A stretch of DNA of 64,000 nucleotides from a virus. The DNA lies in IMG/VR virus record IMGVR_UViG_3300036852_000742, positions 17,121 to 81,120 of that record. One strand, 5' to 3'. Under the pieces are notes generated by a model. It did no database searches, had not been told where the DNA came from, and saw nothing but the letters and a program-made list of their open reading frames with translations. Both the position numbers and the translations under genes were made by a program. Shown in pieces: positions 4,649-28,160 of this stretch (position 1 is its first letter; each line of letters begins with the position of its first letter).

Positions 4649-4882
4649 CTATGCCGCGTCGACCTGGTTGGTGGTCTGTTCGCCGGGATCGGCGATCCCG
4701 AGCCGGTCCAGCTCGGCAAGGAGTAGGTCCCGCAGGAGCCCCGAGCGGCTGACCCGGCCACCTTCACACACGACGTCCATCCGGCGTAGCTCATCGTCGT
4801 GGAGGGTTAGACCGACCTGATTGGTGCGTCTGGGCATGGTGCTTCGGCGTGGTCCTCTACGCCTGGCCGGGTCTTCATGCAT
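4649..4882 (-). CDS. ribbon-helix-helix (CopG-like) regulator
   Basis: QVGLTLHDDELRRMDVVC-GRVSRSGLLRDLL. Confidence 0.65.
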   Translation of the reverse strand: MHEDPARRRGPRRSTMPRRTNQVGLTLHDDELRRMDVVCEGGRVSRSGLLRDLLLAELDRLGIADPGEQTTNQVDAA

Positions 4883-5129
4883 GGGCGACCTCCTCCATGA
4901 TCTTCGGTCTTGTCAACGATATACTACCGTTGGTGGTTGCGGGACCCCCGAACCGGACACGCCGGCCGACACCATCCCAGTTCCCCGGATGTCGCTCTGG
5001 GCGTTCCTGTACCCTGGCCCGTGTTCCCCTGCGCGTCCGGGGGGCCGATGGCAGGGGCCGCTGCGTACAACACGACCCTGCTGGTGGCGGCGCTACCCGG
5101 CTGGCCGTCACCTGACCGGACCCCACGCG

Positions 5130-6840: not shown

Positions 6841-7590
6841 TCATCCCGCATCGGTCACACCCCCGTTTCCGTACAACTCGTGCAGCCGGGCAAGGTAGCG
6901 ACGCTCGGCCTCGGCCGGTCCCCAGCCCTCAACCTTGACGCCCAGCGGGGGCACGTCCTCGACTGCGGCCCACGGCAACGGCGGCGGCGCCATGAGCGCG
7001 TCGCGCTCGTCATGGAGGATTCGGTTGTCGGCCTCCTTGACTTCGACCGGGCAGGTGTGATCGAGACCGAACCGGTCGCAGATGACAACCATCAACCGGT
7101 CCTCAGCCGCCTGGTACGCCGGCATTGCAGCTTTGAGTGGCCGGATCATGTCGCCCATGTACGCCTCGGTCGCGTCATGCAGGAGCGCCCACAGCGCGTG
7201 CTCAGGTGCGACTGCGTAGCTCATCAGCACGCAGTGCTCGGCCACCGAGTAGAAGCGACTGACGTGCCCGCCGTAGCGGCACAGCAGCGACAAGGCGTGC
7301 GCGATGTCCACGGGATCGACGTCGTTCACGTTTGGCGCGAGCGGATAGAAGGCACGCCCGGTGAAGGTCTGCATCCATGCCTGCATCCCAGTGGGGTCGG
7401 TGGCACGTAGCGCGGCGAGGATGTGCCCGAGGTGTGTGGGGGTGCCCCGAACATGGAAGGTGACCACGCCTGTGCGCGGGTCCTGGTGGGCAACAGCGTG
7501 CGGCTTCAGGCCGGGGCCTGCCCACTCGTCGACCAGCGCCTCGGCGTCGGCGGCGGTCGCGACCAGAAGCCGGTCTGATGACTCAGTCAT
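6841..7590 (-). CDS. HD-domain phosphohydrolase (YfbR/5'-deoxynucleotidase-like)
   Basis: DIAHALSLLCRYGGH..FYSVAEHC...ALLHDATEAYMGD...KEADNRIL. Confidence 0.85.
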   Translation of the reverse strand: MTESSDRLLVATAADAEALVDEWAGPGLKPHAVAHQDPRTGVVTFHVRGTPTHLGHILAALRATDPTGMQAWMQTFTGRAFYPLAPNVNDVDPVDIAHALSLLCRYGGHVSRFYSVAEHCVLMSYAVAPEHALWALLHDATEAYMGDMIRPLKAAMPAYQAAEDRLMVVICDRFGLDHTCPVEVKEADNRILHDERDALMAPPPLPWAAVEDVPPLGVKVEGWGPAEAERRYLARLHELYGNGGVTDAG

Positions 7591-11275: not shown

Positions 11276-13123
11276 CGGTGATCGCCGTACATGCGGCCCA
11301 CACCGGGGTACAGGCAGTGGACCGACACCGGTGCTGCTGGCGCCTCGGGGAAACCGAGACGCCGCACGGTCACCATCTCGCCCTCGACGGCCAGCACCAC
11401 GTACTCCCATTGCGGGCCGTCGATGAACCTGACCACGTCCCTCGGGCGCGGGTCGAACGACACGAACACCTTCGCCAAACACTTCGGGCAGTGGTACACC
11501 CAGTCGCAGCTATCAGCACCGTGCCCGCCCATTGACCGTGAGTCGTGCCCGAGGAACTGGCCGTTGCACATGCCGCACATGCGCCAGAGGGCGCTAGCCA
11601 CGGGGCACCTCCACCAGCGGGACGGCGGGCGGGGCCGGGAGGTCAGCCGGCCACAGCACCGTCACACCGATCCCCCGAACGACGATCACGTCCATGACCA
11701 GGGCCAGCGCCGTAAAGGTGCCGTCCTCGTCCCGGGCCTGGTTGGTGGCCCAGTACTCGACGGCCCGGGTGGCAACCCGGGCCACGGACGCAGCTTCACG
11801 GGGCGACAGGGCCACCGCAGACCGGTCCTCTGTGGCGGCGGCCCGGCGAATGACCTGCCTGGCCGCGATCACATCCCGGGTTGCCCGGACAACCACAGTC
11901 CTGGACGTGGTGGAGTTGACGGGCCGGTCGGCGGCCAACTCCGTGACCAGGTCACACGCGGCGATCAGAGCCTGCCCGGCGACCGGCCACAGGGCCCGCC
12001 CGACCCGGTCACCCAGGTGCAGCATGACCGGCCCGGGGCAGTCGGGGAGCTTCCCCAACCCGGGATGGTTGTTGCCGCCGGTGCCGTTCGGGTAGGTCCA
12101 CCGCTGCCACCACGCACCCCGGTCACCCTGCACGTTCTCCACGTCGATCCCGCAGTACAGGCAGTCCCGCCAGTGGTCGCGGTCCTTATGCCACGAGTGA
12201 CGGCGCAGGGCCGGGTTGTACACCGTCACGCGCCGGTTGGGGTTGGTGCGCTTCACGGCGGCGGCCCCGGCCTGCGGGGCTTCGCTGCTGGCACCTCGGC
12301 GGGCCACGCGGTCACCACCGCCCGGCCGACCTTGCCCAACGTGGCGTTGAGGGCCCACGCCACGGCGACCACCACCGCCCCGGCCAGGCGCTCAACCACA
12401 GGTTCGGTCCAGGTGGCCCCAACCCGCCGCAACGACACCCTGTGCCCGGTCATGACGGCACCGGCAGGTGTGTCACCACAGGCCAGTCGACGACTGTGTA
12501 GCTGTCCACGACCCGGCCCGCGTCCGGACCAACAACCCGGCTGCACCCCGCGTAGATGCACCACACCTCGTCCGTGGGGGAGGTCGGGGTCCGGTCGTCC
12601 CACGTCTCGCCGCACACCGCCATCGCCAAGCCGTCCGGGGATCGCCGGACCTGCCCGAGCAGCGGGGTCCACATCGGACCGAGCCCGTCGATGACCGTGC
12701 ACAGCCGGCACCGGTCGGGCTCGTCGGCGGCGGTGTTGAGCCGGTCGACAAACACGTAGCCGTGCGGGGGCATGTGGCACACCAGCTCCACGACGCTGTC
12801 GTTCTGCGTGACGGCGCGTACCCGGTGCTGGCGGCCCCATCCCGTCGGCGTCCACAACCCCGGCGCCAACCCGACCTGCCCGGCGCTCATCGGGGACCAC
12901 CGCCCTCGTCCCGCCCGCCACGGTGAGCAGGGCAGAAATCTGGGGCGGAACGGCTCCCCTTCCCTTTGAACGGGCGGGTCAGCCAGCCGGCCTTCTGGGC
13001 AGCCAAGCGGGCGTTGTTCTCGGAGAGCTTGTCCCACCGTCCGCCACCACGGAAGGTCGTGGCGCACCCGTACCGGTCGCAATGCACTTCCCATACCGGG
13101 TCCACGACCCGTCGGGCGCTCAT
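11272..13123 (-). other. chain of five small coupled hypothetical genes (11272-11601, 11594-12256, 12253-12453, 12450-12890, 12887-13123)
   Basis: Consecutive 4-8 bp start/stop overlaps; several contain CxxC pairs. Confidence 0.55.
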
Positions 13124-14610
13124 CGGGGGCCGCCTGTCGGCCACGCCGCGAACCAGATGTGGGTCGGGTACTCGTGTTCAGCCCCGTCGTCCAGGCGGAT
13201 GGTCACCCAGTCGCCGCGCTCGCCGCGCCTGTCCACGGGGGAGCAGTACGCGACCGGGCCGGCGAAGTTTCGGATGAGGTGCCGACCGTTGAAGCCCCGG
13301 TCCCAGACGCCTTTGACGATGTCACCTACCTCGATCCGGTCGACCCGGATGTCTTCGGGGTCACCGGGTGGGAACTCCCACGCGGGGGTGCCGACGACCG
13401 GGGTCAGCGACGCGGCGATGTCCGGGACCGGTTCGCCGGCCTCAAGCCGGTCGTACACGTCCAGGTAGGCGGCGCTCAGCGCCCGGGTCGCGGCAACGTC
13501 GGCGCCGGGGGCGGGTTGGCGTACCGCTACCTCAACGTCGGCAGCACCCAGGTCAAGCCCATGTACCAGTCGCTGCGCCCATTCGACGTGCCTGGCGAGC
13601 TGGCGTGACGCGTCGTCGTACCGGCCGCCGGTGCGCCTCCACAGTTGCTGCCAGCGGTCAACCTTGGAGGCGAGCGCCGCCGACCATGGGGTGCTGGCCG
13701 GGGTGTCCCACTGCATCCCGTCCCGGCGCCGGCCGGTGACCCCGTCGTACTTGACGGTCTTCGGCCAACTGCTGCTGGCCAGGGAGACACTCTTCGGGTT
13801 GATCCGGGTGACCTTGTACCAGCCGTGCCCCCCGACCCGAGCCCAGTCACCTTTGGCGAAGTCTTCCGGCGCCCCAGCAACGAACTCACCGGACGCGGCC
13901 AGCTCTTCGAGCACCTTCCGCCAGTGGCGGATCTCTTCTGCGAGCCGGTCGACCTCGCGTTGCGACTTCTCTCCGGTTCCGCCGCTGGTCAGGGAGTCAT
14001 CCCGGCGCCGCTCCCACTGCCGCACCTCGGCCGACAAGGTGTCGATCCGGCGCATCGTGACCCTCGGGTTGTGCCGGGCCTTCTGGTTGGCTGCTACACC
14101 GTCGGCCCGGTCGGCGAGGTCCCGGGCGTAGCGGCGTTCGTCGGCGGCGTGCTCCTGGCTGCGGCTGGCCCGCTCCCGACGGTTCCGGTCAGCCGGGTAG
14201 GAGTAATGGTCGACTAGCAACGGCTGCCCGAACGGGATCGAGTCGTGGACCCGGTCGGCGGCGGCCTGGTGGCCGGCGGCGCGGGTAGCGGCGAGGCCTG
14301 CGCGTTCGTCGAGCCGGTCGGCGCGGACCTCAGCCCGGTCGGTCCGGGCAGCCTCCCGTACGGCGGTGGGCCGCCACCGGTTGTCGATCTGGACGGTGAC
14401 CACGTGGTCGGCGTCGCGCAGCGCCTGCGCAGCGCGATCGGTCTTCTCCTGCTGGCCGTCCTTGTCGCGGCTGTTTTTGATGTAGATGCCGACGGTACGA
14501 CCCCACGTGAAGCCGTGCCGGCTGACGATCTCCAACACGCCGTCGCCCTTGTGGGAGCCAGTTAACAGGGTCCCGTCGGCGTGGGTGTGGCTGATAAGGA
14601 TTGCGGTCAT
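13120..14610 (-). CDS. DUF3560 domain protein
   Basis: ATG 14610; ISHTHADGTLLTGS.KGDG, IPFGQPLLVDHYS, MRRIDTLSAEVRQ, VTRINPKSVSL. Confidence 0.8.
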   Translation of the reverse strand: MTAILISHTHADGTLLTGSHKGDGVLEIVSRHGFTWGRTVGIYIKNSRDKDGQQEKTDRAAQALRDADHVVTVQIDNRWRPTAVREAARTDRAEVRADRLDERAGLAATRAAGHQAAADRVHDSIPFGQPLLVDHYSYPADRNRRERASRSQEHAADERRYARDLADRADGVAANQKARHNPRVTMRRIDTLSAEVRQWERRRDDSLTSGGTGEKSQREVDRLAEEIRHWRKVLEELAASGEFVAGAPEDFAKGDWARVGGHGWYKVTRINPKSVSLASSSWPKTVKYDGVTGRRRDGMQWDTPASTPWSAALASKVDRWQQLWRRTGGRYDDASRQLARHVEWAQRLVHGLDLGAADVEVAVRQPAPGADVAATRALSAAYLDVYDRLEAGEPVPDIAASLTPVVGTPAWEFPPGDPEDIRVDRIEVGDIVKGVWDRGFNGRHLIRNFAGPVAYCSPVDRRGERGDWVTIRLDDGAEHEYPTHIWFAAWPTGGPR

Positions 14611-15385
14611 CGTGGTGCTCCTTGGGGAACGGTGAGCAGGATGGCCAGCGCCGCATGGGCGGCGGCGACCCGGATGGTGCTGTGCGCGGCGTCGCGGCGG
14701 CGGTGCTCTTCGCGTTCGGCGGCGCTCACCGAGTGACCGAAGACGACCATCCCGCCGATGCCGCCCCCGTCGGTGACCACGCGGTGTGCGATACCGACCA
14801 GGTCGGCATGCGCAGCAGGTGTGCCGATCCACCGGCGGGCCTGGGGCAAGCTCGCGAACTGGACCTCCAGCTCGGGCAGGAGCGCGGCCAACTCGACGAG
14901 CGGCAGGTAGATCGCCCCCCACGGTGTGCCGGGGGTTTCGAGGCGTTCCACGGCCCATTGCCCGTCCGTCGACTGGGCTGCCCACACCTCCGGGCGGGTG
15001 CGCCCGGAGGTGGGGCCGCCGAGGAACGTGACCCGGCTGCTGGTGGTGACACCCGTCACCGGGGTCACGCCGTTCACAGCGCGTCCTCTTCTTGGCAGCA
15101 GCCGCAGCAGAACCGGTGCCCGGTGTTGCACGGGCCAACACCCAGTTGGTGCGGTTCGTGGCAGTGCTGGTGGTCGCAGTCGACCGGCTCCGGGTCGGCG
15201 CAGGTTTTGTGGGGCTGGAGCGCCCGGCATTGCTGGTCGGTGGGGGTGTCGGCGCATTCGGCGCAGGCGTCGGCGTGGACCCATCGGCCGGCGGTGTAGG
15301 CGAGGAGCCCACCGCAGGTGCACTGGGCGATGGCGGTGCGCAGTGCGGGTTGGGTGGTGACAAGGGTCAGGGCCGGTGCGGGCAT
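14607..15385 (-). other. two coupled hypothetical genes (14607-15077; Cys-rich 15074-15385)
   Basis: 4-bp overlaps; immediately downstream of promoter 15441-15471. Confidence 0.55.
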
Positions 15386-15565: not shown

Positions 15566-16066
15566 ATGGCCACCACGAAGACCGGACGTAAGACCCCCCG
15601 TCGGCGGTCCACTCAGGAGCGCCACGACGAGTACGTACACCTCACCGCGCTCGTCGAGCAGTTCGACCTCGCCGGGGACACGGACGGTGCGCTCGCAGCT
15701 CGCTTCGCCCACTTCTGCACCATCTACAGCGAGCGCAACGCAATCCTGATCCTGGCCCAGAAGCCGGACGCGATCGAGGTCCACGGCTACGTCGACTGGC
15801 AGAAGCTGGGCCGGCAGGTGCGCCACGGCCAGACCGGAATCCGCATCATCGCCTACACGGGCTCCCGTCCGAACAAAGGCAAAGGCGACCTCAGCGAGAC
15901 AGACCCTGCTGTGATCGACCCGACCACGGGAAAGCCCACCCGTCGCGACTTCAACCCGGTGTCCGTCTTTGACATCACCCAGACCGACCCGATGGGGCAA
16001 GACGCCGAAGCGCTCGCCGCCGTGGCCCGGTTCGAGGCCAACCAGGCAGCCAAGGCCGCGTCATGA
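15566..16066 (+). CDS. ArdC-like N-terminal ssDNA-binding domain protein (putative anti-restriction)
   Basis: YSERNAILILAQ...VHGYVDWQKLGRQVRHGQTGIRI...VSVFDITQT. Confidence 0.8.
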   Translation: MATTKTGRKTPRRRSTQERHDEYVHLTALVEQFDLAGDTDGALAARFAHFCTIYSERNAILILAQKPDAIEVHGYVDWQKLGRQVRHGQTGIRIIAYTGSRPNKGKGDLSETDPAVIDPTTGKPTRRDFNPVSVFDITQTDPMGQDAEALAAVARFEANQAAKAAS

Positions 16067-19884: not shown

Positions 19885-21465
19885 TGCCCGAATCTGGACC
19901 TAACCCGTTCGTCTACCTCCTCTGGTCGAACTCCGCCAACGCGTGGTGGGCAGCCGGCACGGGTGCCGGCCACACCAAAGATGTGTGGCAGGCGGGCCGT
20001 TTCGACAAGGACGCGGCGGCCAGCACGTGCGCCGCGTTTACCCCGGCCGTTGTGGTGATGGTGCTGGCCCCGGAGTACCACCACGCACCGTTCACCGCAG
20101 CACAGCTACGGGAGGAGGTACCGGACATGATGCAGCGCCGGGTCCGCGACGCCACCGACCGGGCTGTTGCCGACGCGTACGCCGCCCGCCAGCCGGGGTA
20201 CCCGCCGGTGCACGTCTACTTCCTGCACGACACGCTCACACCCCGCACCGTCCGGGCCGTCCGGGACCTTGCCGCCGCGCCGGCCGTGGGAGACGTGTTC
20301 GACTTCCCGCACGCCGGCTACGAGGGCGCCGCCGTGACGTGGCGGGTGACCAGGGTCGAGATCACCGAGCAGGGTGGCAGCGCGACGGCGTACATGACCG
20401 ACGCCGGGGAGGGACACCAGTGAGCCGCGCCGCCCAGGTGCGGGCCTTCGCCCGTGACCTGTCCGAGCGGACCGGGGTAAGCATTGAGGTGTCCTATGAC
20501 AGCGGGCCCCGCTGGCATCTTGAGTGGAGCGACGGGCCTTCCCGCGACGCGGTCATCAAGGCGGCCACAAAGACGGACCTGGCCGGCGCCGTGATCGTGA
20601 CGCACCGGCATTACTCCACCCGCGCTGTCGCCCTCGGCTCGATACGCCTGGCAGCCTCAACCACCACCTACGGGCACTCCACGGCGGAGACAAGGACCTG
20701 GCGGATCGAGGAGACGCTGGAGGAAGTCGACTATCCCGACCGGGCCGCCGACGCCCGCGAAGAGCACATGGTCAACCGGGTGTTGGTTGAGGCGACACCG
20801 GAAGGGTGGAAGTGGACTGACCGGGATCTCGTTGTTGCCTTGATTGGGCGGAAGGGGCTGGGGTGGTTACTCGCCGACGCAGACCCAGGTGTGGCAAGCC
20901 CCGCAGAGATCCTGACCGCCCGCTACGCCACGACGGGCGCTGAGGTTATCCAGTGGAATCGACACGCCCACCCGATGCCGGCGGCCGACGCGGTCCGGGC
21001 CGCGCTCGCCGACCCGGACCTGGGCGCCGTTGGCTCGGTGGCGTTGCTGAGGCTGCTCCGCCAGCTAAGGGAAGACCGGCAGCGGGCCGAAGACTTGGCG
21101 GTAGCTGTCGCCCAACGGGCCGGTGTGCCTTTGTGGGAGATCGCCGACGCGCTCGGGGTTGACAAGGTGCGTGTTTCCGGTGCCCAACACCAGGACACTG
21201 AACACACTCTCACCGGTACGAGGAAGGATGACGGCTGATGCCCACTACAGAGAATGAGCTGCCCACCGTTGTGGAGATGTTCGTCCGCGCGGACACCCTG
21301 ATGGACACCGCGCACCGGGCGCTTGCCGACGCGGCCGACTGGCTGCGCTCGGACTGGCAGCCCCTCGGGGCTAGCTTGACCGACGCGCAGGCGGCCCGCC
21401 GCAGCAAGATGTTCGCCGAGATCGAGGCTGCGATGGCCGCAATCGAAAGGGCCAGGCGCTCATGA
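19884..21465 (+). other. three coupled hypothetical genes (19884-20423, 20420-21238, 21238-21465)
   Basis: TGATG/GTGA/TGATG overlaps leading directly into the Cas12 gene. Confidence 0.6.
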
Positions 21466-23513
21466 TCACAGTTGTGTATCGGTACGGTGTCGCGTCCTGG
21501 TGGCGGGCACCAGAGTGGATCAGCGAGCAACTTCGGCTAGGGCACAACCTCGACAACGACCTTGTCTCGGTTGCCTACGAGCACGAGGAGGCCAAGGCCG
21601 CGCATTGGACGGCGTTCCCGCAGATCGCCGTTCACGAGGCCGCCCTAGCAACAGCCGAGACTGAGGCTGTGGATCTCTTCGCGCACGTCAAGCAGGTGCG
21701 CGGATGGCTGGGCAAGGCCAAACACGACAAGGACAAGCTCCGGGCCGCCGAGCTACGGGTGGACCTTGCCGCTGCGCAGGCCGATCTGAGGGCCGTCAAG
21801 GCCGGCATCGCCGCTCTGAAGTTGGAGCGGCGGACGTCGATCGCCGACGTGTACGAGCAGTCCACGGAGGCCCTGGCCGCGCTGTCGGACGACCGCAAGG
21901 CAAAGATCGGAGCCTTGTACGGGCGGTACTGCGGCAGCGACGGCGCTGAGGACGGCAGCGAGGATGCGGACGTGCTGCACTGGGCCAGCTTCAACGCCGC
22001 CGTCAAGCACCACGAAACCGCCCGCCAGCGGATGTTGAAGGCGCGTGGTGCCGGGCAGGCCGCCCAGCTCCACTACCACCGGTGGGACGGCACAGGTGCG
22101 GTCACCGTGCAGTTGATGCGCCATGCCTGGTCGCATGGGTGCGCACCGTCGGGTCCTCCGTGGCCGTGCAACCCGGACAAGCCGCGCCCAAAGGCCGTTG
22201 ACTGCCCGAACCGGCAGGCCAAAGACCCGGCCCGGTCACCGCAACTCCTCGCTGCCGGCGGCGGGAAATGGGCCAACGTGTTCCAGCTCAGCCCGTGGTC
22301 GCGGGACCCTGTGGCGTGGAAACGCCAGCCCCGTACCGCGCGGCGCGGCACAGCAACCCTGACCCTCAGCGGCGGCCGGCGCCTTGAGGTCCCCGTCCTC
22401 GTTGACCGGGTCCTGCCCGCAACTGCTGACGTACCGCAGGCGCAGCTCGTGCGGTCTGAGGTAGCCGGCCGGATGGTGTGGCACCTGTGCGTGACGGCGA
22501 TCCTGCCCGACCCGGAGCCGGTGACCACCGGCCCGACCGTGGCGGTACACCTGGGGTGGCGGCGCCGCCCGGACGGGCATGTCCGTGCCGGGGTTGTCCT
22601 ACCCGACGGGCCACTCCCCCCACCACCCGCCGACCTGCTGCGGGCCGCGTCGTCGAGCCCCGGCCGCACCGGCACCGCCCCAACCCATGTCCCGCATCAC
22701 CGCCCGTTCTTGGAACGCCACGACGGCTGGTGGGAAGTTGTCATCCCCGGCCCGATGTGGGACATCGTCGGCCGCCCGTCGGCAATCCGGGCACGCCGGG
22801 ATCTCGCCTTCAACGAGATCCGGGACGTGCTGGTCAGGTGGTTGGATGAGCACCCGGAGCACGCCGACCCGCTGGGGCTCGACCTGGCCCGGGTCAAACT
22901 GTGGCGGGTGCCACGGGCACTGGCCGGCCTGGTACGACGGTGGGCCAGCGACGCGCAACTACCGGCCCTGTTCGCCGCGCAGTTGCTCCCCGACCTGGTC
23001 GCCTGGTGGCGACGGGACCTGCACCTGTACCGGTACGAAGTCGGCGAACGCCACGACCTGGCCGCCCGCCGTGACGACGTGTGGGGACAGATCGGGGCAT
23101 GGCTCGGCCGGTCAGCCGGCCGGGTCCTCGTCGGGGACGAGGACTACCGGGCGCTGCGCCGACGCACCAGCATCGTCGACGACGACATGAGCGCACCGAC
23201 CGAAAGGGTCGATGAGGCGGTCCGTGCCCGCGCGGCCTTCGCCGTACCGGGGCTGCTACGCGCAGCGCTGACCAACGGCGCGAGCCGGCGCGGCGTGACC
23301 GTGGCGAAAGTCCCGGCAGCGTGGGCCACCCGGGAACACCACGAATGCGGCCATGTCGCGACCGGTGACGACGACCAGTACAGGGAGCGGATCGTGGTGA
23401 CCTGCCCTGGTTGCCAGGTTGCCTACGACCAGGACCGCAACGCGGTGCTGGTGATGCTGGAACGCGAGCGGGCCGGTAGCACGGGGGCGAAGGGGGACCG
23501 CTCGCAGCCCTGA
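21462..23513 (+). CDS. cas12m: type V-M (V-U1) Cas12m-like CRISPR effector, RuvC catalytically degenerate
   Basis: 683 aa next to a CRISPR array; motifs I recall from Cas12m (QLRLGHNL, LYGRYC..LHWASFN, HRWDGTGAVTVQL, LCVTA..PEPVTTGPTVAVHLGWR, RRDDVWGQI, PGLLRA, TREHHECGH, CPGC..YDQDRN); RuvC-I Asp replaced by His, RuvC-II VLVGDED. Confidence 0.88.
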   Translation: MITVVYRYGVASWWRAPEWISEQLRLGHNLDNDLVSVAYEHEEAKAAHWTAFPQIAVHEAALATAETEAVDLFAHVKQVRGWLGKAKHDKDKLRAAELRVDLAAAQADLRAVKAGIAALKLERRTSIADVYEQSTEALAALSDDRKAKIGALYGRYCGSDGAEDGSEDADVLHWASFNAAVKHHETARQRMLKARGAGQAAQLHYHRWDGTGAVTVQLMRHAWSHGCAPSGPPWPCNPDKPRPKAVDCPNRQAKDPARSPQLLAAGGGKWANVFQLSPWSRDPVAWKRQPRTARRGTATLTLSGGRRLEVPVLVDRVLPATADVPQAQLVRSEVAGRMVWHLCVTAILPDPEPVTTGPTVAVHLGWRRRPDGHVRAGVVLPDGPLPPPPADLLRAASSSPGRTGTAPTHVPHHRPFLERHDGWWEVVIPGPMWDIVGRPSAIRARRDLAFNEIRDVLVRWLDEHPEHADPLGLDLARVKLWRVPRALAGLVRRWASDAQLPALFAAQLLPDLVAWWRRDLHLYRYEVGERHDLAARRDDVWGQIGAWLGRSAGRVLVGDEDYRALRRRTSIVDDDMSAPTERVDEAVRARAAFAVPGLLRAALTNGASRRGVTVAKVPAAWATREHHECGHVATGDDDQYRERIVVTCPGCQVAYDQDRNAVLVMLERERAGSTGAKGDRSQP

Positions 23514-23641
23514 CCGCGCAGGCCAAGGGTTAGTGTCAGCACCGAGAACGGGGCCATAACTCCACAGTGGACAAGTGTCCAGGGGAGCACTCGCGACGAT
23601 CTACGTTTGCGCTGCTCAACCTGCGGCTTTTTCCCCAAGCC

Positions 23642-25495
23642 GTGGCAATGGCGATCGCAGCGCCCTTTCTCTGCGAGCCACATGGTGAGCTTGCACGGCC
23701 AGACAATGATCTCGTGGCAATGGCGATCGCAGCGCCCTTTCTCTGCGAGGCGTCAGGACGTCAGCTACTACAGGTCTCCGTCCGAGTGACAACGGCGAGC
23801 GCAGCGCCTCGAACTCTGCGAGCGGCCATGTCTACAGAGGCCGGCGCATCGTCGGTTCGACGCGACAATGGCGAGCGCAGCGCCTCTTTCTCTGCGAGTG
23901 CGCCATGGGTTTACGCGGACTCCTGGCGAGGTACGTGACGACGGCGAGCGCAGCGCCTCAAATCTGCGAGGTCCGGGCTGTCGCGTTCGTCATGGGTGAC
24001 GAACGCGATCGCAGCGATCCTTCTCTGCGAGTACGTCGACGACTCCGGCGCCGAGGCGAGGCGGTTCAAGTGGCAATGGCGATCGCAGCGCCCAAAGACT
24101 GCGAGCTTAGCTCCTCGTCGTAGTACCCCTGCACTGCAAGGTGGCAATGGCGAGCGCAGCGCCTGAAATCTGCGAGCCGGTGATTCGGTGCGGCCGGCGT
24201 TGGGTGGTACCTGCATGTGACCATGGCGAGCGCAGCGCCTCAACTCTGCGAGAAGGGGCAGGGCCTGTCGCGCGTACCAGGCCCGCGCGGTGACCATGGC
24301 GAGCGCAGCGCCTCAACTCTGCGAGTCCCGCCAGCTTGACTACCCGCTAGCCTGGATCAGGCCGGTGACCATGGCGAGCGCAGCGCCTCAACTCTGCGAG
24401 TCTCCACCGGCGTCATGCTCACTTCGCGCAACCCCAAGGTGACCATGGCGAGCGCAGCGCCTCAACTCTGCGAGGAGGGTCTCCCGTAGCAGCTCGGTGC
24501 AGCGTGACAACGGCGAGCGCAGCGCCTGAAATCTGCGACGCTATATCGTGAAGCAGGCGCACCATTATGAGCGTGGTGACAATGGCGAGCGCAGCGCCCC
24601 TCTTTCTGCGAGTACCTGAACCACGCCCGAGCGGCTTCCGTTGCCTGCGGCGTAGCAACGGCGAGCGCAGCGCCCTTTTTCTGCGAGTGCGTGTGCGGCG
24701 AGGCCGCAGTACTGACGCGACAGTGGCGAGCGCAGCGCCTAAAACCTGCGACTTGGTATCCCGATCCAGGCGGCCCGTGAGACCGCGTAAGTGACAACGG
24801 CGACCGCAGCGCCCTTTCTCTGCGAGGCTGCAATGAGTAACTACATGGATGTCCGGCGCAGGTAACGATGGTGATCGCAGCACCTCAAAACTGCGAGTGG
24901 ATGGTCCCGATGTTGGTCGTGATCGAGGGCGCCGCGCGTGACAATGGTGATCGCAGCACCTCAAACTGCGAGGTCGTCAGCCGCACGGACGCGGCAAGGT
25001 TTGAGACCATGAGCGACAATGGCGATCACAGCGCCTCAAAACCTGCGAGCTGGATGCGGCGGCGGAGCATCTCCGCGTCGCGCGTACCGGCGACAATGGC
25101 GATCACAGCGACCACAAACTGTGAGATCCTCTCAACCGGTGCTAGCTTGCGCGCGACCGGTTGCGTGACGATGGTGATCGCAGCGCCCAAAACCTGCGAG
25201 CACGGCAGCGCCTCCAGCCCGACCGGTTGCGCGACGACGGTGAGCGCAGCACCCAAGAAGACACTGCGAGTTCGAGTACGTGTCGGCTCCTCCAAGGGCG
25301 ACATGGGCGACGATGGTGAGCGCAGCGCCCAAAGTCTGCGAGTGATGGGGTGGCGCGAGCAGTACGACCGCATGCAGGTGGCAATGGCAATGGCGATCGC
25401 AGCGCCCAAAACCTGCGAGTCCATAGCTTGGATGGGTTACCACTCCGCGCTACGGCGCGACAACGGTGATCGCAGCGCCCCAACGATCCTGCGAG
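23642..25495 (+). CRISPR. CRISPR array, 26 heterogeneous 35-42-nt repeats and 25 spacers (25-40 nt)
   Basis: Consensus G(T/C)GACAA(T/C)GGCGA(G/T)CGCAGCGCC-variable-CTGCGAG; repeats start at 23642, 23714, 23786, 23862, 23935, 23996, 24070, 24141, 24217, 24290, 24365, 24439, 24504, 24576, 24652, 24717, 24791, 24862, 24938, 25013, 25090, 25165, 25231, 25307, 25378, 25457. Confidence 0.95.
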
Positions 25496-25516: not shown

Positions 25517-25555
25517 TGCCCCGCCCCAAACGCCAGCGGCGTCGGGGGCGGGGCA
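25517..25555. terminator. stem-loop closing the array; lies between convergent units
   Basis: tgccccgcccc...ggggcggggca. Confidence 0.65.
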
Positions 25556-26236: not shown

Positions 26237-27460
26237 CTAAGGGCGGGGGATTCCAACTGCAAGCGGTTGAGGTTCACGGGCGCTCAACGCCTTGCGGCGT
26301 GTCGCCCCTCCGGCACGAGACGGTTGTCTCGGGACTGGTGTGCAGTCCTGTCCTGCCGCGATGTTGATGCTGGCGTTGTGGTCGGCGTTGCAGGTAAAGC
26401 CGCAGGCGGTGCAACAGAATCGGGCTTGGCTCTCGCGCGAGTTCTTGTCGATCCATCCGCAGGCACTGCAACGCAGGCTGGTGTAGGCGGCTTTGACTTT
26501 CTGGACGCGGCCGGGGGCTTTGTCTTCGGTGCGCCGGGCGAGCATGCCCCACCCGGACGCGAGGATGGCCCGGTTCAGGCCGGCCTTCTGCCGGACGTTG
26601 CGGCCGGGGCTATCGACGGTGCCCCTTGCGGTCGCGGTCATGTTCTTGATCCGCAGGTCTTCGAGGCGGATCACGTCGAACCGGCGGGCGAATGCGGTGC
26701 TGGTTTTCTCGGTCCAGTCCTTGCGGATGTCCGCCTCGCGTGCCTTGAGCCGTGCGATCCGCTGACGCTCAACCTGCACTACCTCGGACCGCTTCGGTGC
26801 CCGAGCCTTGCGCCGTTCTGCCTTACGCAGTCGGGCCCGCTCTTTGCTGGACAGGCGAGGGCAGGCCAGTGTTTCGCCCGTGCTCAACGCGGCCGTGATG
26901 GTCACGCCCCGGTCGACGCCGACAACCGTTCCGTTTCCGGGAGACTCGATCGGGTCGGGGATGACCGCGAACGCGACGTGCCAACGCCCGGAGCGGTCAC
27001 AGGTGATGCGGTACGACTTGCATGCCGCAACGGATCGCGACCAGCGGAACCGAACCCAGCCAACCTTGGGAACCTTGACCTGACCCCAGTGTCGGTTCAG
27101 CCGTTGGACATGGAGTCCGAAGGTGAAGTCGGTGATCCGGAAGCCTTCGTGGACGTACTTGCTGCGCCACGTCGGCCGCATGTGGGCGCCCGTAAAGAAG
27201 TTGGCCATGGCTTGGGCGTAGTCGCGCAGAGCCTGTTGCTGGACGTTAACCGAACCGGCGGCGAGCCACGGCTCGGCGGTGCGCGCTTCGGTGAGTTGGC
27301 GGCACTGGACGACGAAGCTGGGGGCCGACCGACGGGCACGCGCGGGCGTCCACCACGCTCCCTGTTCAACGGCCAGATTCCAGACGTACCGGGCGTCACC
27401 GCAGTGCGACAGAAGGGTCGCCTCCTGCGCCACGGTCGGGTACAGCCGATACCTGGACAT
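26237..27460 (-). CDS. tnpB: RNA-guided endonuclease TnpB
   Basis: MSRYRLYPT...; intact RuvC triad GVDRG / RLEDL / NADHNA; YTSLRCSACG..FCCTACG zinc finger. Confidence 0.95.
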   Translation of the reverse strand: MSRYRLYPTVAQEATLLSHCGDARYVWNLAVEQGAWWTPARARRSAPSFVVQCRQLTEARTAEPWLAAGSVNVQQQALRDYAQAMANFFTGAHMRPTWRSKYVHEGFRITDFTFGLHVQRLNRHWGQVKVPKVGWVRFRWSRSVAACKSYRITCDRSGRWHVAFAVIPDPIESPGNGTVVGVDRGVTITAALSTGETLACPRLSSKERARLRKAERRKARAPKRSEVVQVERQRIARLKAREADIRKDWTEKTSTAFARRFDVIRLEDLRIKNMTATARGTVDSPGRNVRQKAGLNRAILASGWGMLARRTEDKAPGRVQKVKAAYTSLRCSACGWIDKNSRESQARFCCTACGFTCNADHNASINIAAGQDCTPVPRQPSRAGGATRRKALSAREPQPLAVGIPRP

Positions 27461-27488
27461 GGAACCATAATAGCACCATGATGGTCCC

Positions 27489-27638
27489 ATGAAGCATGTG
27501 AACCTGCGCCTACCCGACGACGTCCACGAGGCAGTCAAAGCAGCCGCCGAACACGACCGACGTTCCCTCAACAGCATGCTGATCGTCCTCATCGAGCGAG
27601 CCCTCACGGCAGACCGTCCAACCTCACCCCCGCCCTGA
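27489..27638 (+). CDS. Arc-like ribbon-helix-helix protein inside the IS
   Basis: Manual translation MKHVNLRLPDDVHEAVKAAAEHDRRSLNSMLIVLIERAL (49 aa), divergent from tnpB. Confidence 0.75.
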   Translation: MKHVNLRLPDDVHEAVKAAAEHDRRSLNSMLIVLIERALTADRPTSPPP

Positions 27639-27722
27639 AGGACGAGGCACCCGCCGGACAAGGGTCGGTGGCTGCCGGATCCGCACCGCCGCCCCGGTGA
27701 ATCGACGGCCCGGGTGCGCGGT

Positions 27723-28160
27723 TCAGAGTTTGAGGATGATCGCAAGGATCGAGCCTGCGAGGATCGCCGCCCCGCACAGGTACGCCCAGCCCAGATTCAG
27801 CCCGGTCGAGCGGCCTTCGGTCTTGTCGATCCTGGACGCCAACTCACGTATCCGCTCACCGGTACCGGCGCGCTGTGCCTCAAACTCGACGCGCGACACG
27901 AACGTGGCCGTCTGATCAGACAGGGTCTGACGAAACTCGTTGACCCCTTCGAAGCGTTTCTCCGTGGCCACTTCAGCCTTCGTGACGGCTTTCTCCGCCG
28001 CGATCAGCGCCGCCCCGATGGCCTTCTCGGCCGCGAGGAGGGCCGCGTCGATTGCTTTTGTCTGGGCGTCGAAACGCTGCTGGTAGCGCAGATCAGTTTC
28101 GACGAACAAGGCCCGGACATGCTCCAGGAGTGTGATACGTGAAGACCTCACACCCCACAC
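27723..28160 (-). CDS. lysis-cassette membrane protein (coiled coil + C-terminal TM)
   Basis: EKRFEGVNEFRQTLSDQ..., hydrophobic C-terminus. Confidence 0.65.
   Translation of the reverse strand: MWGVRSSRITLLEHVRALFVETDLRYQQRFDAQTKAIDAALLAAEKAIGAALIAAEKAVTKAEVATEKRFEGVNEFRQTLSDQTATFVSRVEFEAQRAGTGERIRELASRIDKTEGRSTGLNLGWAYLCGAAILAGSILAIILKL

What the first reader, a model, noticed from the sequence alone, without database searches (positions are those of the whole stretch)
23642..25495. Nearly every repeat is different, yet the stem is conserved, including a compensatory base-pair change
Seen: only R1=R2 and R9-R12 are identical. Loops vary in sequence and length (CTTTCT, TCAACT, CAAAAC, CCAAGAAGACA), 5' ends vary (GTGGCAAT, GTGACCAT, GCGACGAC), and R25 has a 6-nt duplication. 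CGCAG...CTGCG is retained almost throughout; R21 (25090) has TCACAG...CTGTGA and neighbouring R20 carries only the first half of that change. Arrays built by Cas1-Cas2 normally have near-identical repeats. Inference: an old, domesticated array under selection for RNA structure, where repeat divergence limits recombinational spacer loss, or a mosaic assembled by recombination.
Basis: partly seen in the sequence, partly recalled or inferred. Interest (0 to 1): 0.75.

Follow-up and report, generated by a model that had tools for sequence, protein, structure and literature searches.

The report
Phage Cas12m array with divergent repeats
This is the guide-RNA array of a known DNA-binding CRISPR system (Cas12m, type V-M) carried by a soil prophage: 22 of its 26 repeats differ in sequence, yet nearly all keep the two interlocked RNA stems that Cas12m grips, so it looks like a working array that has evolved without the copying that normally keeps CRISPR repeats identical.

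Summary
Window 23642-25495 (+) holds exactly 26 repeats and 25 spacers directly downstream of a 683-aa Cas12m gene (21462-23513). The element is an 81-kb tailed-phage provirus with no Cas1 or Cas2 match. 22 of the 26 repeats are distinct, with mean pairwise identity 0.77.

There are two interleaved stems: GGYG/CRCC and CRCAG/CUGYG. They form the stem-plus-pseudoknot handle solved for Cas12m2, including the invariant flipped-out A(-24) and the -23:A(-2) position.

Variation sits in the 8-nt 5' tail and the loop. Diversity is 0.35 in unpaired columns and 0.06 in paired columns (p = 5e-5). Each stem carries one compensatory pair. Loops are nearly randomised in sequence but strongly G-poor.

An independent assembly of a soil-metagenome run reproduces the array without a difference. 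Other phage and plasmid Cas12m arrays show the same behaviour in milder form.

Best reading: this is a functional V-M array evolving without repeat homogenisation. It is under purifying selection on the crRNA fold and has been reshuffled by duplication or recombination. Selection for anti-recombination is plausible but untested. No spacer targets were found.

Earlier notes of this scan describe the same phenomenon on other phage DNA.

The parts
21462..23513 (+). cas12m gene (683 aa), type V-M effector of a distinct subclade
   Evidence: phmmer against PDB: Cas12m2 8hhl E 3.7e-73, GoCas12m 8pm4 E 1.2e-70, covering residues 4-671. Pfam Cas12f1-like TNB domain. His at the RuvC-I position (H363) and D658 in the DQDxNA motif. 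GC3 is 0.84.
23514..23641 (+). 128-nt leader between the cas12m stop and repeat 1, with a hairpin plus T-run at 23611-23637
   Evidence: Sequence read. One terminator-like hit and no sigma-70-like promoter. The covariance model finds no repeat here.
23642..25495 (+). CRISPR array: 26 repeats (35-42 nt) and 25 spacers (25-41 nt)
23642..23749 (+). R1 and R2, identical (tail GTGGCAAT, loop CTTTCT)
23996..24031 (+). R6, the most degenerate repeat: stem I keeps only 2 of 4 pairs, and the preceding spacer is only 25 nt
   Evidence: second-lowest model score, 42.9 bits.
24217..24474 (+). R9-R12, four identical repeats flanking three unrelated spacers
   Evidence: The Logan contigs break here.
24862..24972 (+). 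R18 and R19: stem I GGTG/CACC, a compensatory U-A in place of C-G
   Evidence: pair 11:21: CG 16, UG 3, UA 3. R23 has the same change; R22, R24 and R26 have the U.G intermediate.
25013..25049 (+). R20: pseudoknot stem with an A.C mismatch (CACAG/CTGCG), the half change
25090..25125 (+). R21: pseudoknot stem CACAG/CTGTG (compensated A-U), plus one G.A mismatch in stem I
25126..25270 (+). S21-R22-S22-R23: the two spacers share a 14-nt 3' end in the same register and S22 is short (30 nt); R23 has a 10-nt loop
   Evidence: (family D3, 88% over 40 nt).
25378..25419 (+). R25 with a 6-nt tandem duplication in its 5' tail
   Evidence: Tandem Repeats Finder 25379-25394, period 6; sequence.
25518..25554 (+). 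G+C-rich hairpin (10-bp outer stem) 23 nt after the last repeat; possible end of the array transcript
   Evidence: Direct reading. Not called by the terminator scan because no T-run follows.

Best explanation
The stretch is the crRNA array of a prophage-borne type V-M CRISPR-Cas12m system.

Each repeat encodes the Cas12m guide handle, in this order:
- an 8-nt 5' tail that tolerates change (the equivalent part is disordered in the Cas12m2 structure);
- the stem I 5' strand, GGYG;
- an invariant A, equivalent to the flipped-out A(-24);
- position -23 (G, U or C), opposite A(-2);
- the pseudoknot 5' strand, CRCAG;
- the stem I 3' strand, CRCC;
- a 5-10-nt G-poor loop;
- the pseudoknot 3' strand, CUGYG;
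- then A and G, followed by the spacer.

The array is read on the + strand, the strand of cas12m. By homology, Cas12m binds each handle, cuts the precursor within the repeat, and uses the guides to bind DNA and block transcription rather than cut it.

The element carries no Cas1-Cas2, so repeats are not regularly re-copied from the leader repeat. Point changes therefore accumulate wherever the protein-RNA complex tolerates them (tail, loop, position -23). Purifying selection, with occasional compensatory pairs, keeps both stems and the two key adenines.

Local duplication, recombination and perhaps rare acquisition in trans have reshuffled the units.

Shown here: the anatomy, the distribution of variation, the covariation, the homology, and the lack of adaptation genes in the record. 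Inferred: transcription, processing, silencing, and the cause of the heterogeneity.
For: - Effector: Cas12m homology at E 4e-73 over nearly the full length.
- Position of the array: it starts 128 nt downstream of the gene on the same strand.
- Match to the solved handle: the layout agrees position for position with the published Cas12m2 handle. That handle has a disordered 5' end at -36 to -30, a flipped-out A(-24), a G(-23):A(-2) pair, and a pseudoknot stacked coaxially on a stem (PMC10442227). Stem I and stem II and the triplex-pseudoknot are also described in PMC11013384.
- Pairing: 98% of pair cells are standard pairs. Two pairs show changes on both sides. 0 of 500 shuffles reach the covariation score, and slid controls give 19-59% paired.
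- Diversity: 0.062 in paired columns against 0.346 in unpaired columns, p = 5e-5. A13 and A35 are invariant.
- Loops: 6% G against 35% in the window (p = 9e-15), and the first loop base is always a pyrimidine.
- Adaptation genes: no Cas1 or Cas2 match in the 81-kb record. No Cas1 in four other Cas12m-bearing viral records, two of them complete.
- Relatives: the same topology with different stem sequences occurs in other loci (S1 GCC/GGC or CCC/GGG; S2 of six different sequences). Their arrays also vary internally: L004 has 6 of 9 repeats distinct with an A-U/G.U/G-C series, L011 3 of 8, L010 2 of 4, L046 2 of 2, L048 3 of 3, and L049 and L050 have structure-preserving variants.
- Reality of the variants: the array is reproduced without a difference by a second assembly.
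- Reshuffling.
Against: - No RNA data exist, so transcription and processing of any repeat are unproven.
- No spacer has a credible target. Searches covered the element itself, 50,697 phage records, 72,556 plasmid records and 401 actinobacterial genomes.
- R6, R20 and R21 have broken pairs and may be dead units.
- The number of independent compensatory events inside this array is small, about two, and all stem I variants lie in one block (R18-R26).
- The repeat ends in G(-1) in 24 of 26 copies, where Cas12m2 reads C(-1) base-specifically.
- The second RuvC residue cannot be assigned: the sequence is GDED where Cas12m2 has DD. Non-cleavage is therefore inferred, not shown.
- The host may supply Cas1-Cas2 in trans. 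The identical block R9-R12 with unrelated spacers is hard to explain without real acquisitions.
Confidence: 0.75

Rival explanations
1. Repeat dissimilarity is itself selected. A phage that cannot replace lost spacers benefits from repeats too different to recombine or slip, so the array is a natural non-repetitive guide array.
For: The median longest exact run shared by two repeats is 10 nt, and only 6% of pairs share 20 nt or more. De Bruijn-graph contigs run straight through the array except at the identical repeats. Loop diversity of 0.57 is near saturation while the stems are frozen. The element has no adaptation genes.
Against: Drift at tolerated positions predicts the same pattern without any selection for dissimilarity. 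Four identical repeats (R9-R12) and the pair R1=R2 persist. Other V-M arrays are far less diverged. No deletion-rate data exist.
Confidence: 0.15
2. The array is mainly a mosaic. Blocks with different repeat variants were built at different times or in different arrays, by host Cas1-Cas2 acting in trans, and later joined by recombination between related phages. It overlaps the best explanation: it differs in the main cause of the heterogeneity, not in what the array is.
For: There is block structure: R9-R12 are identical with unrelated spacers, and R18-R26 share GGTG and A-rich loops. Nearest relatives are often far apart (R7-R25, R17-R1/2, R4-R14, R8-R13). 68 of 120 site pairs show all four allele combinations. 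L050 joins two repeat families in one array.
Against: Within blocks, nearly every repeat still differs. Recurrent mutation at a few tolerated sites also produces four-allele patterns. No donor array and no relative with shared units was found. Spacer lengths of 25-41 nt are irregular.
Confidence: 0.3
3. The array is a decaying relic that is no longer used, and its repeats are simply rotting.
For: No targets were found for any spacer. Three repeats have broken pairs. Spacer lengths are irregular, with four short spacers.
Against: Decay would hit stems and loops alike, but paired columns are 5-6 times less variable (p = 5e-5) and changes are compensated. A13 and A35 are invariant. The loops keep a strong composition bias. 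cas12m is an intact 683-aa frame with conserved motifs and coding-type GC3.
Confidence: 0.05
4. The variants are sequencing or assembly artefacts, or a collapse of population variants.
For: The source is a soil metagenome of modest depth, 5-17x.
Against: A second assembly gives zero differing letters and no indels over the covered bins. About 23% divergence that follows RNA structure cannot be read error.
Confidence: 0.02

Closest known systems
Cas12m2 of Mycolicibacterium mucogenicum and its crRNA handle (PDB 8HHL/8HHM/8HIO; Omura et al. 2023, PMC10442227)
   Same: The protein is homologous over almost its whole length (E 4e-73). It has a His at RuvC-I and a C-terminal zinc-ribbon TNB domain. 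The repeat is 36 nt. The handle has a stem plus pseudoknot, a tolerant 5' tail, an unpaired A at -24, position -23 opposite A(-2), and the spacer 3' of the handle.
   Different: Identity in the closest relatives recovered (mycobacterial plasmid and genome loci) is only about 30-36%. The window protein has Asp where Cas12m2 has His269, Ala where it has His12, and Leu-His where it has Arg447-Lys448; all of these are RNA contacts in the structure. The handle ends in G(-1), not C(-1). The pseudoknot has 5 bp rather than 6, and stem I is GGYG/CRCC. The locus lies on a tailed prophage. No repeat heterogeneity is described in that paper.
GoCas12m and the eight V-M systems of Bigelyte et al. 2024 (PDB 8PM4; PMC11013384)
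   Same: Stem I and stem II are predicted in the repeats, and the handle is a triplex-pseudoknot. There is no tracrRNA. Processing occurs within the repeat. The effector binds DNA without cleaving it.
   Different: That work reports high repeat conservation between orthologous systems and used minimal two-repeat arrays. Here the variation is within one natural array.
Canonical CRISPR arrays maintained by Cas1-Cas2
   Same: Direct repeats alternate with unique spacers, lie next to the effector gene, are transcribed as one precursor, and become more divergent towards the trailer end.
   Different: Canonical arrays have near-identical repeats except the last one or two (established knowledge). 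Here 22 of 26 differ, mean identity is 0.77, spacer length ranges from 25 to 41 nt, and the element has no adaptation genes.
Plasmid- and prophage-borne V-M and type IV systems used in competition between mobile elements (Koonin and Makarova 2024, PMC11656645)
   Same: The system is carried by a mobile element, has a nuclease-impaired effector and no adaptation module, and its presumed role is silencing rival elements.
   Different: The review says V-M is mostly on plasmids and on some prophages. It does not describe repeat polymorphism within arrays.

Membership tests
Type V-M CRISPR-Cas12m | Effector homologous to characterised Cas12m proteins over its full length | tested here: met
   8hhl/8hio E 4e-73 and 8pm4 E 1e-70, with two aligned stretches covering residues 4-222 and 251-671.
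Type V-M CRISPR-Cas12m | RuvC fold plus C-terminal zinc-ribbon (TNB) domain | tested here: met
   Pfam PF07282 at residues 599-663, above its cut-off. CxxC...CxxC and the DQDxNA motif are aligned.
Type V-M CRISPR-Cas12m | Non-canonical (HDD-type or otherwise impaired) RuvC triad | tested here: inconclusive
   H363 replaces the first Asp, as in Cas12m2, and D658 is present. The second position aligns to G558 with D559-E560-D561 next to it, so the residue cannot be assigned from sequence.
Type V-M CRISPR-Cas12m | Adjacent CRISPR array on the same strand with repeats of about 36 nt | tested here: met
   26 repeats of 35-42 nt begin 128 nt after the stop codon.
Type V-M CRISPR-Cas12m | Repeat folds as stem plus pseudoknot, with an unpaired A at -24 and a -23:A(-2) contact | tested here: met
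   Layout and covariation within the array and across eight other loci, compared with the published description. The fold itself was not determined.
Type V-M CRISPR-Cas12m | C at -1, read base-specifically by His269/Arg270 in Cas12m2 | tested here: not met
   G(-1) in 24 of 26 repeats, C only in R13 and R16. The His269 equivalent is Asp in this protein and its three closest relatives. This marks a subclade difference, not exclusion from the family.
Type V-M CRISPR-Cas12m | No tracrRNA | tested here: met
   No anti-repeat found. The covariance model has no significant minus-strand hit. Core-motif matches on the minus strand need 2-3 mismatches and are scattered. This is sequence evidence only.
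Type V-M CRISPR-Cas12m | No adaptation module in the locus | tested here: met
   No Cas1 (PF01867) or Cas2 (PF09827) match in the 81,120-bp record, with controls positive. The record is estimated 83% complete, and the host genome is unknown.
Type V-M CRISPR-Cas12m | PAM-dependent DNA binding and transcriptional silencing without cleavage | not testable with these tools
   Inferred from Cas12m2 and GoCas12m.
Canonical CRISPR array | Near-identical direct repeats throughout the array | tested here: not met
   22 distinct repeats of 26, mean pairwise identity 0.77.

The most novel reading that the evidence does not exclude
Phage V-M arrays are hard-wired guide libraries rather than adaptive ones. 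Their repeats are free, or even selected, to become mutually dissimilar, which protects irreplaceable guides from recombinational loss. Different handle variants (loop, position -23, tail) may also set different processing or loading efficiencies, so the repeat sequence would tune how much of each guide is made. In this subclade the effector and handle would have co-evolved a new -1 base specificity, with His to Asp in the protein and C to G in the RNA.
Probability: 0.15. Interest if true: 0.7.

Novelty: new variant of a known kind. Interest (0 to 1): 0.5.

Why it matters
The system itself is a known kind. The array is of interest in four ways.

1. It works as a natural mutational scan of the Cas12m guide handle. 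22 variants that selection has let through show which positions are free: the 5' tail, the loop in sequence and in length from 5 to 10 nt, and position -23. They also show which positions are fixed: both stems, A(-24) and A(-2). This is directly useful for designing compact Cas12m guides and stable, non-repetitive multiplex arrays for Cas12m base editors.

2. It bears on how adaptation-less CRISPR systems on mobile elements get and keep their spacers. A block of identical repeats with unrelated spacers sits inside an otherwise diverged array. This suggests rare bursts of acquisition or recombination on a background of long stasis.

3. Arrays like this are easily missed by repeat-identity-based CRISPR finders, so V-M arrays on phages may be under-counted.

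4. The His-to-Asp change at the residue that reads the -1 base, together with C-to-G at -1, is a testable candidate for protein-RNA co-evolution.

Tried and rejected
The contigs of the closest relatives from Logan assemblies (P0003 and P0004, 58% and 54% identity) could therefore not be fetched. The JGI relatives that were recovered (L007, L009, L014) are too short to hold an array.
- No close relative with the same repeats was found in viral, metagenome or genome collections. L005 and L006 were chance matches to the repeat pattern.
- Spacer targets, negative results. There is no self-match apart from a 21-nt PAM-distal, G+C-rich patch for S9. Nothing significant was found in phages.
- Spacer targets, weak hits read as chance. 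A 34/38 match with a 2-nt gap lies in a DUF6884 gene of Streptomyces plasmids; it runs into the flanking repeats. Among 401 actinobacterial genomes, 138 gave weak hits. These pile up on G+C-rich spacers, and the best one is ordinary coding sequence.
- Five genomes in the search (G415, G424, G430, G653, G757) are unpublished. Only this negative result touches them.
- Four mycobacterial Cas12m loci (G001, G157, G284, G393) have no regular array. One (G284) has solitary handle-like units instead.
- No RNA holder is listed among public runs, so expression could not be examined.
- The Rfam gathering-threshold search found nothing in the window.
- The leader hairpin looked like a degenerate repeat by eye, but the covariance model does not support that.
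That step was stopped. The table was made instead by reading stored loci by coordinate.
- The Wu et al. 2022 Molecular Cell paper on Cas12m is not held. Whether it mentions repeat variation could not be checked.

Full report
**What is there.** Between 23642 and 25495 on the + strand there are 26 direct repeats of 35-42 nt, separated by 25 spacers of 25-41 nt. A covariance model built from the repeats, run over the whole window with filters off, finds exactly these 26 at 41-58 bits. The next best hit scores 16.5 bits. Only R1=R2 and R9-R12 are identical, so 22 sequences are distinct. Mean pairwise identity is 0.77.

**Context.**
- The array begins 128 nt after the stop of a 683-aa gene on the same strand (21462-23513).
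- Its product matches Cas12m2 (8hhl, E 3.7e-73) and GoCas12m (8pm4, E 1.2e-70) over residues 4-671, and it carries the Cas12f1-like TNB zinc ribbon.
- The window is part of an 81,120-bp record classed as a provirus. It has a tape-measure protein, portal, large terminase, capsid/protease and an amidase. The portal's relatives are phages of actinobacteria.
- Neither Cas1 nor Cas2 has a match in the record.
- An IS605-type TnpB lies just downstream on the other strand.
- A published review states that V-M is enriched on plasmids and is also found on some prophages (PMC11656645). The locus is therefore a known kind.

**The repeat is a pseudoknot, not a simple hairpin.** Parsing all 26 repeats shows a second conserved helix, GGYG (positions 9-12) with CRCC (20-23), interleaved with the first (15-19 with 30-34).

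This agrees position for position with the published Cas12m2 handle (PMC10442227; see also stem I/II and the triplex-pseudoknot in PMC11013384):
- a 36-nt scaffold with -36 to -30 disordered;
- a flipped-out A(-24);
- a G(-23):A(-2) pair;
- a pseudoknot stacked coaxially on a stem.

In the window, A13 (= -24) and A35 (= -2) are invariant. Position 14 (= -23) is G, T or once C.

**Is the conservation more than chance?**
- With the pseudoknot written out, 98% of 198 pair cells are standard pairs. When the partners are slid, 19-59% are. 0 of 500 shuffles reach the covariation score.
- Pair 11:21 is C-G in 16 distinct repeats, U.G in 3 and U-A in 3.
- Pair 16:37 is G-C in 20, A-U in R21 and A.C in R20.
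- Nucleotide diversity is 0.062 in the 18 paired columns against 0.346 in the 18 unpaired ones (permutation p = 5e-5). It is 0.27 in the tail and 0.57 in the loop.
- The loop is not neutral. Its 19 variants hold 6% G against 35% in the window (p = 9e-15), 32% G+C against 68%, and always begin with a pyrimidine. That fits a single-stranded linker that must not compete with the G+C stems.
- The number of independent compensatory events inside this array is small, about two.

**Family-level support.** Eight other Cas12m-linked loci have the same order of elements with different stem sequences. Stem I is GCC/GGC or CCC/GGG. The pseudoknot stem has six different sequences, all fully paired.

**Are the variants real?** One public DNA run, a soil metagenome that is probably the source sample, holds 90% of the sampled words. 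Its independently built contigs cover 29 of 30 bins with no differing letter and no indel, and they break only at the identical repeats.

**Is this peculiar to this phage?** No, but this array is the extreme case. All of the following keep the structure-forming pairs:
- L004, a provirus with 33% protein identity, has 6 distinct repeats of 9, with an A-U / G.U / G-C series at one pseudoknot pair.
- L011 has 3 of 8 distinct, L010 2 of 4 and L048 3 of 3.
- L049 has a last repeat in which C-G becomes U-A.
- L050 joins two repeat families with compensated changes in both stems.
- A mycobacterial plasmid mini-array, L046, has 2 of 2 distinct.

None of the four other viral records has Cas1, and two of them are complete genomes. 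The Cas12m papers and reviews I could read do not describe within-array repeat polymorphism. One reports high repeat conservation between orthologues. Earlier AI notes of this scan describe the same thing on other phage DNA. I treat those notes as agreeing leads, not as evidence.

**How the heterogeneity arose.**
- Neighbouring repeats are somewhat more alike (Mantel rho 0.23, p = 0.002).
- Repeats become more divergent towards the trailer (rho 0.50, p = 0.01), as in ordinary arrays.
- Relationships are not simply positional. The nearest relative of R7 is R25, of R17 is R1/R2, and of R4 is R14.
- 68 of 120 informative site pairs show all four allele combinations.
- S21 and S22 share a 14-nt 3' end in the same register, next to similar repeat starts, and S22 is short.
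- R9-R12 are identical but flank unrelated spacers.

Together these point to long drift without homogenisation. On top of that there has been local duplication or recombination, and perhaps rare acquisition with help in trans. One consequence is that two repeats share a median of only 10 identical bases in a row. That should reduce deletion by recombination. Whether this was selected cannot be told from sequence.

**Effector subclade.** The window protein and its three closest relatives (54-59% identity) have:
- Asp where Cas12m2 has His269, the residue that reads C(-1) and stacks on G(-23);
- Ala for His12;
- Leu-His for the loop contacts Arg447-Lys448.

Relatives whose repeats end in AC keep His. 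The window repeats end in AG in 24 of 26 copies. This is a single co-occurrence, and it is worth a test.

The RuvC site has His at the first position and Asp at the third. The second is ambiguous. DNA binding without cleavage is therefore inferred from relatives, not shown.

**Function.** By homology, the array is transcribed with or after cas12m. Cas12m then binds each handle and trims the precursor inside the repeat. The guides direct PAM-dependent DNA binding that blocks transcription of rival elements or host genes.

No target was found for any spacer in the element itself, in the phage or plasmid collections, or in 401 actinobacterial genomes. The weak hits are G+C-rich chance matches. 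No RNA run holds the locus.

**Verdict.** The thing is a V-M CRISPR-Cas12m array of a distinct subclade, with unusually strong repeat polymorphism under clear structural constraint. It is a new variant of a known kind and of moderate interest.

Noticed in passing
window 26237-27745 (-): A 502-aa IS605-type TnpB (guided_TnpB 1.7e-63; OrfB_IS605, HTH and TNB domains) lies about 740 nt downstream of the Cas12m array on the opposite strand. A transposon RNA-guided nuclease thus sits next to its CRISPR-domesticated cousin.
   Followed up: partly
window 21462-23513 (residues D315, A11, L520-H521): The window Cas12m and its three closest relatives have Asp at the His269 position of Cas12m2, which reads base -1 of the handle. 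The window repeats end in G(-1), not C(-1). Relatives with AC ends keep His. This is a possible co-evolved change in specificity.
   Followed up: partly
window 24504-24539 and 24717-24752: R13 and R16 are the only repeats ending in AC, the family-typical end. Both follow unusually short 29-nt spacers, and the spacers after them share a loose similarity (family D5: 77% over 57 nt, repeat included).
   Followed up: no
window 21238-21465 (+): A 75-aa ORF with coding-type GC3 overlaps the cas12m start by 4 nt, which suggests translational coupling. It has no Pfam match and could be an accessory protein of the locus.
   Followed up: partly
L004:5070-7565: In this provirus the Cas12m frame ends at 7016, before the zinc-ribbon region, and a different frame continues to about 7565. 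The gene may be truncated or frameshifted although its 9-repeat array is intact.
   Followed up: no
L031 (G284:C433) about 4690-5085: Downstream of a mycobacterial cas12m there is no regular array. Instead there are two or three solitary handle-like units (GCC..CGCACC GGC..GGTGCG AC) about 350 nt apart.
   Followed up: no
L050:6728-7353: One phage array joins six identical repeats to three repeats of a second family. Both stems are changed in a compensated way (TCC/GGA to CCC/GGG, and CTCAGA/TCTGAG to CTCATG/CATGAG).
   Followed up: partly
L010:3343-3540: A degenerate repeat-like unit lies about 70 nt upstream of the first regular repeat, and the first spacer is only 18 nt.
   Followed up: no
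window 15566-16066 (+) and 13120-15363 (-): An ArdC-N-like (anti-restriction) domain protein and a 747-aa DUF3560 protein lie upstream of the CRISPR locus. This suggests a counter-defence or accessory region of the phage.
   Followed up: no
L008:3076-3400: The same contig that carries a Cas12m with a 3-repeat V-M mini-array also holds a separate array of period 61 with six almost uniform repeats. It makes a useful internal contrast to the V-M arrays.
   Followed up: no
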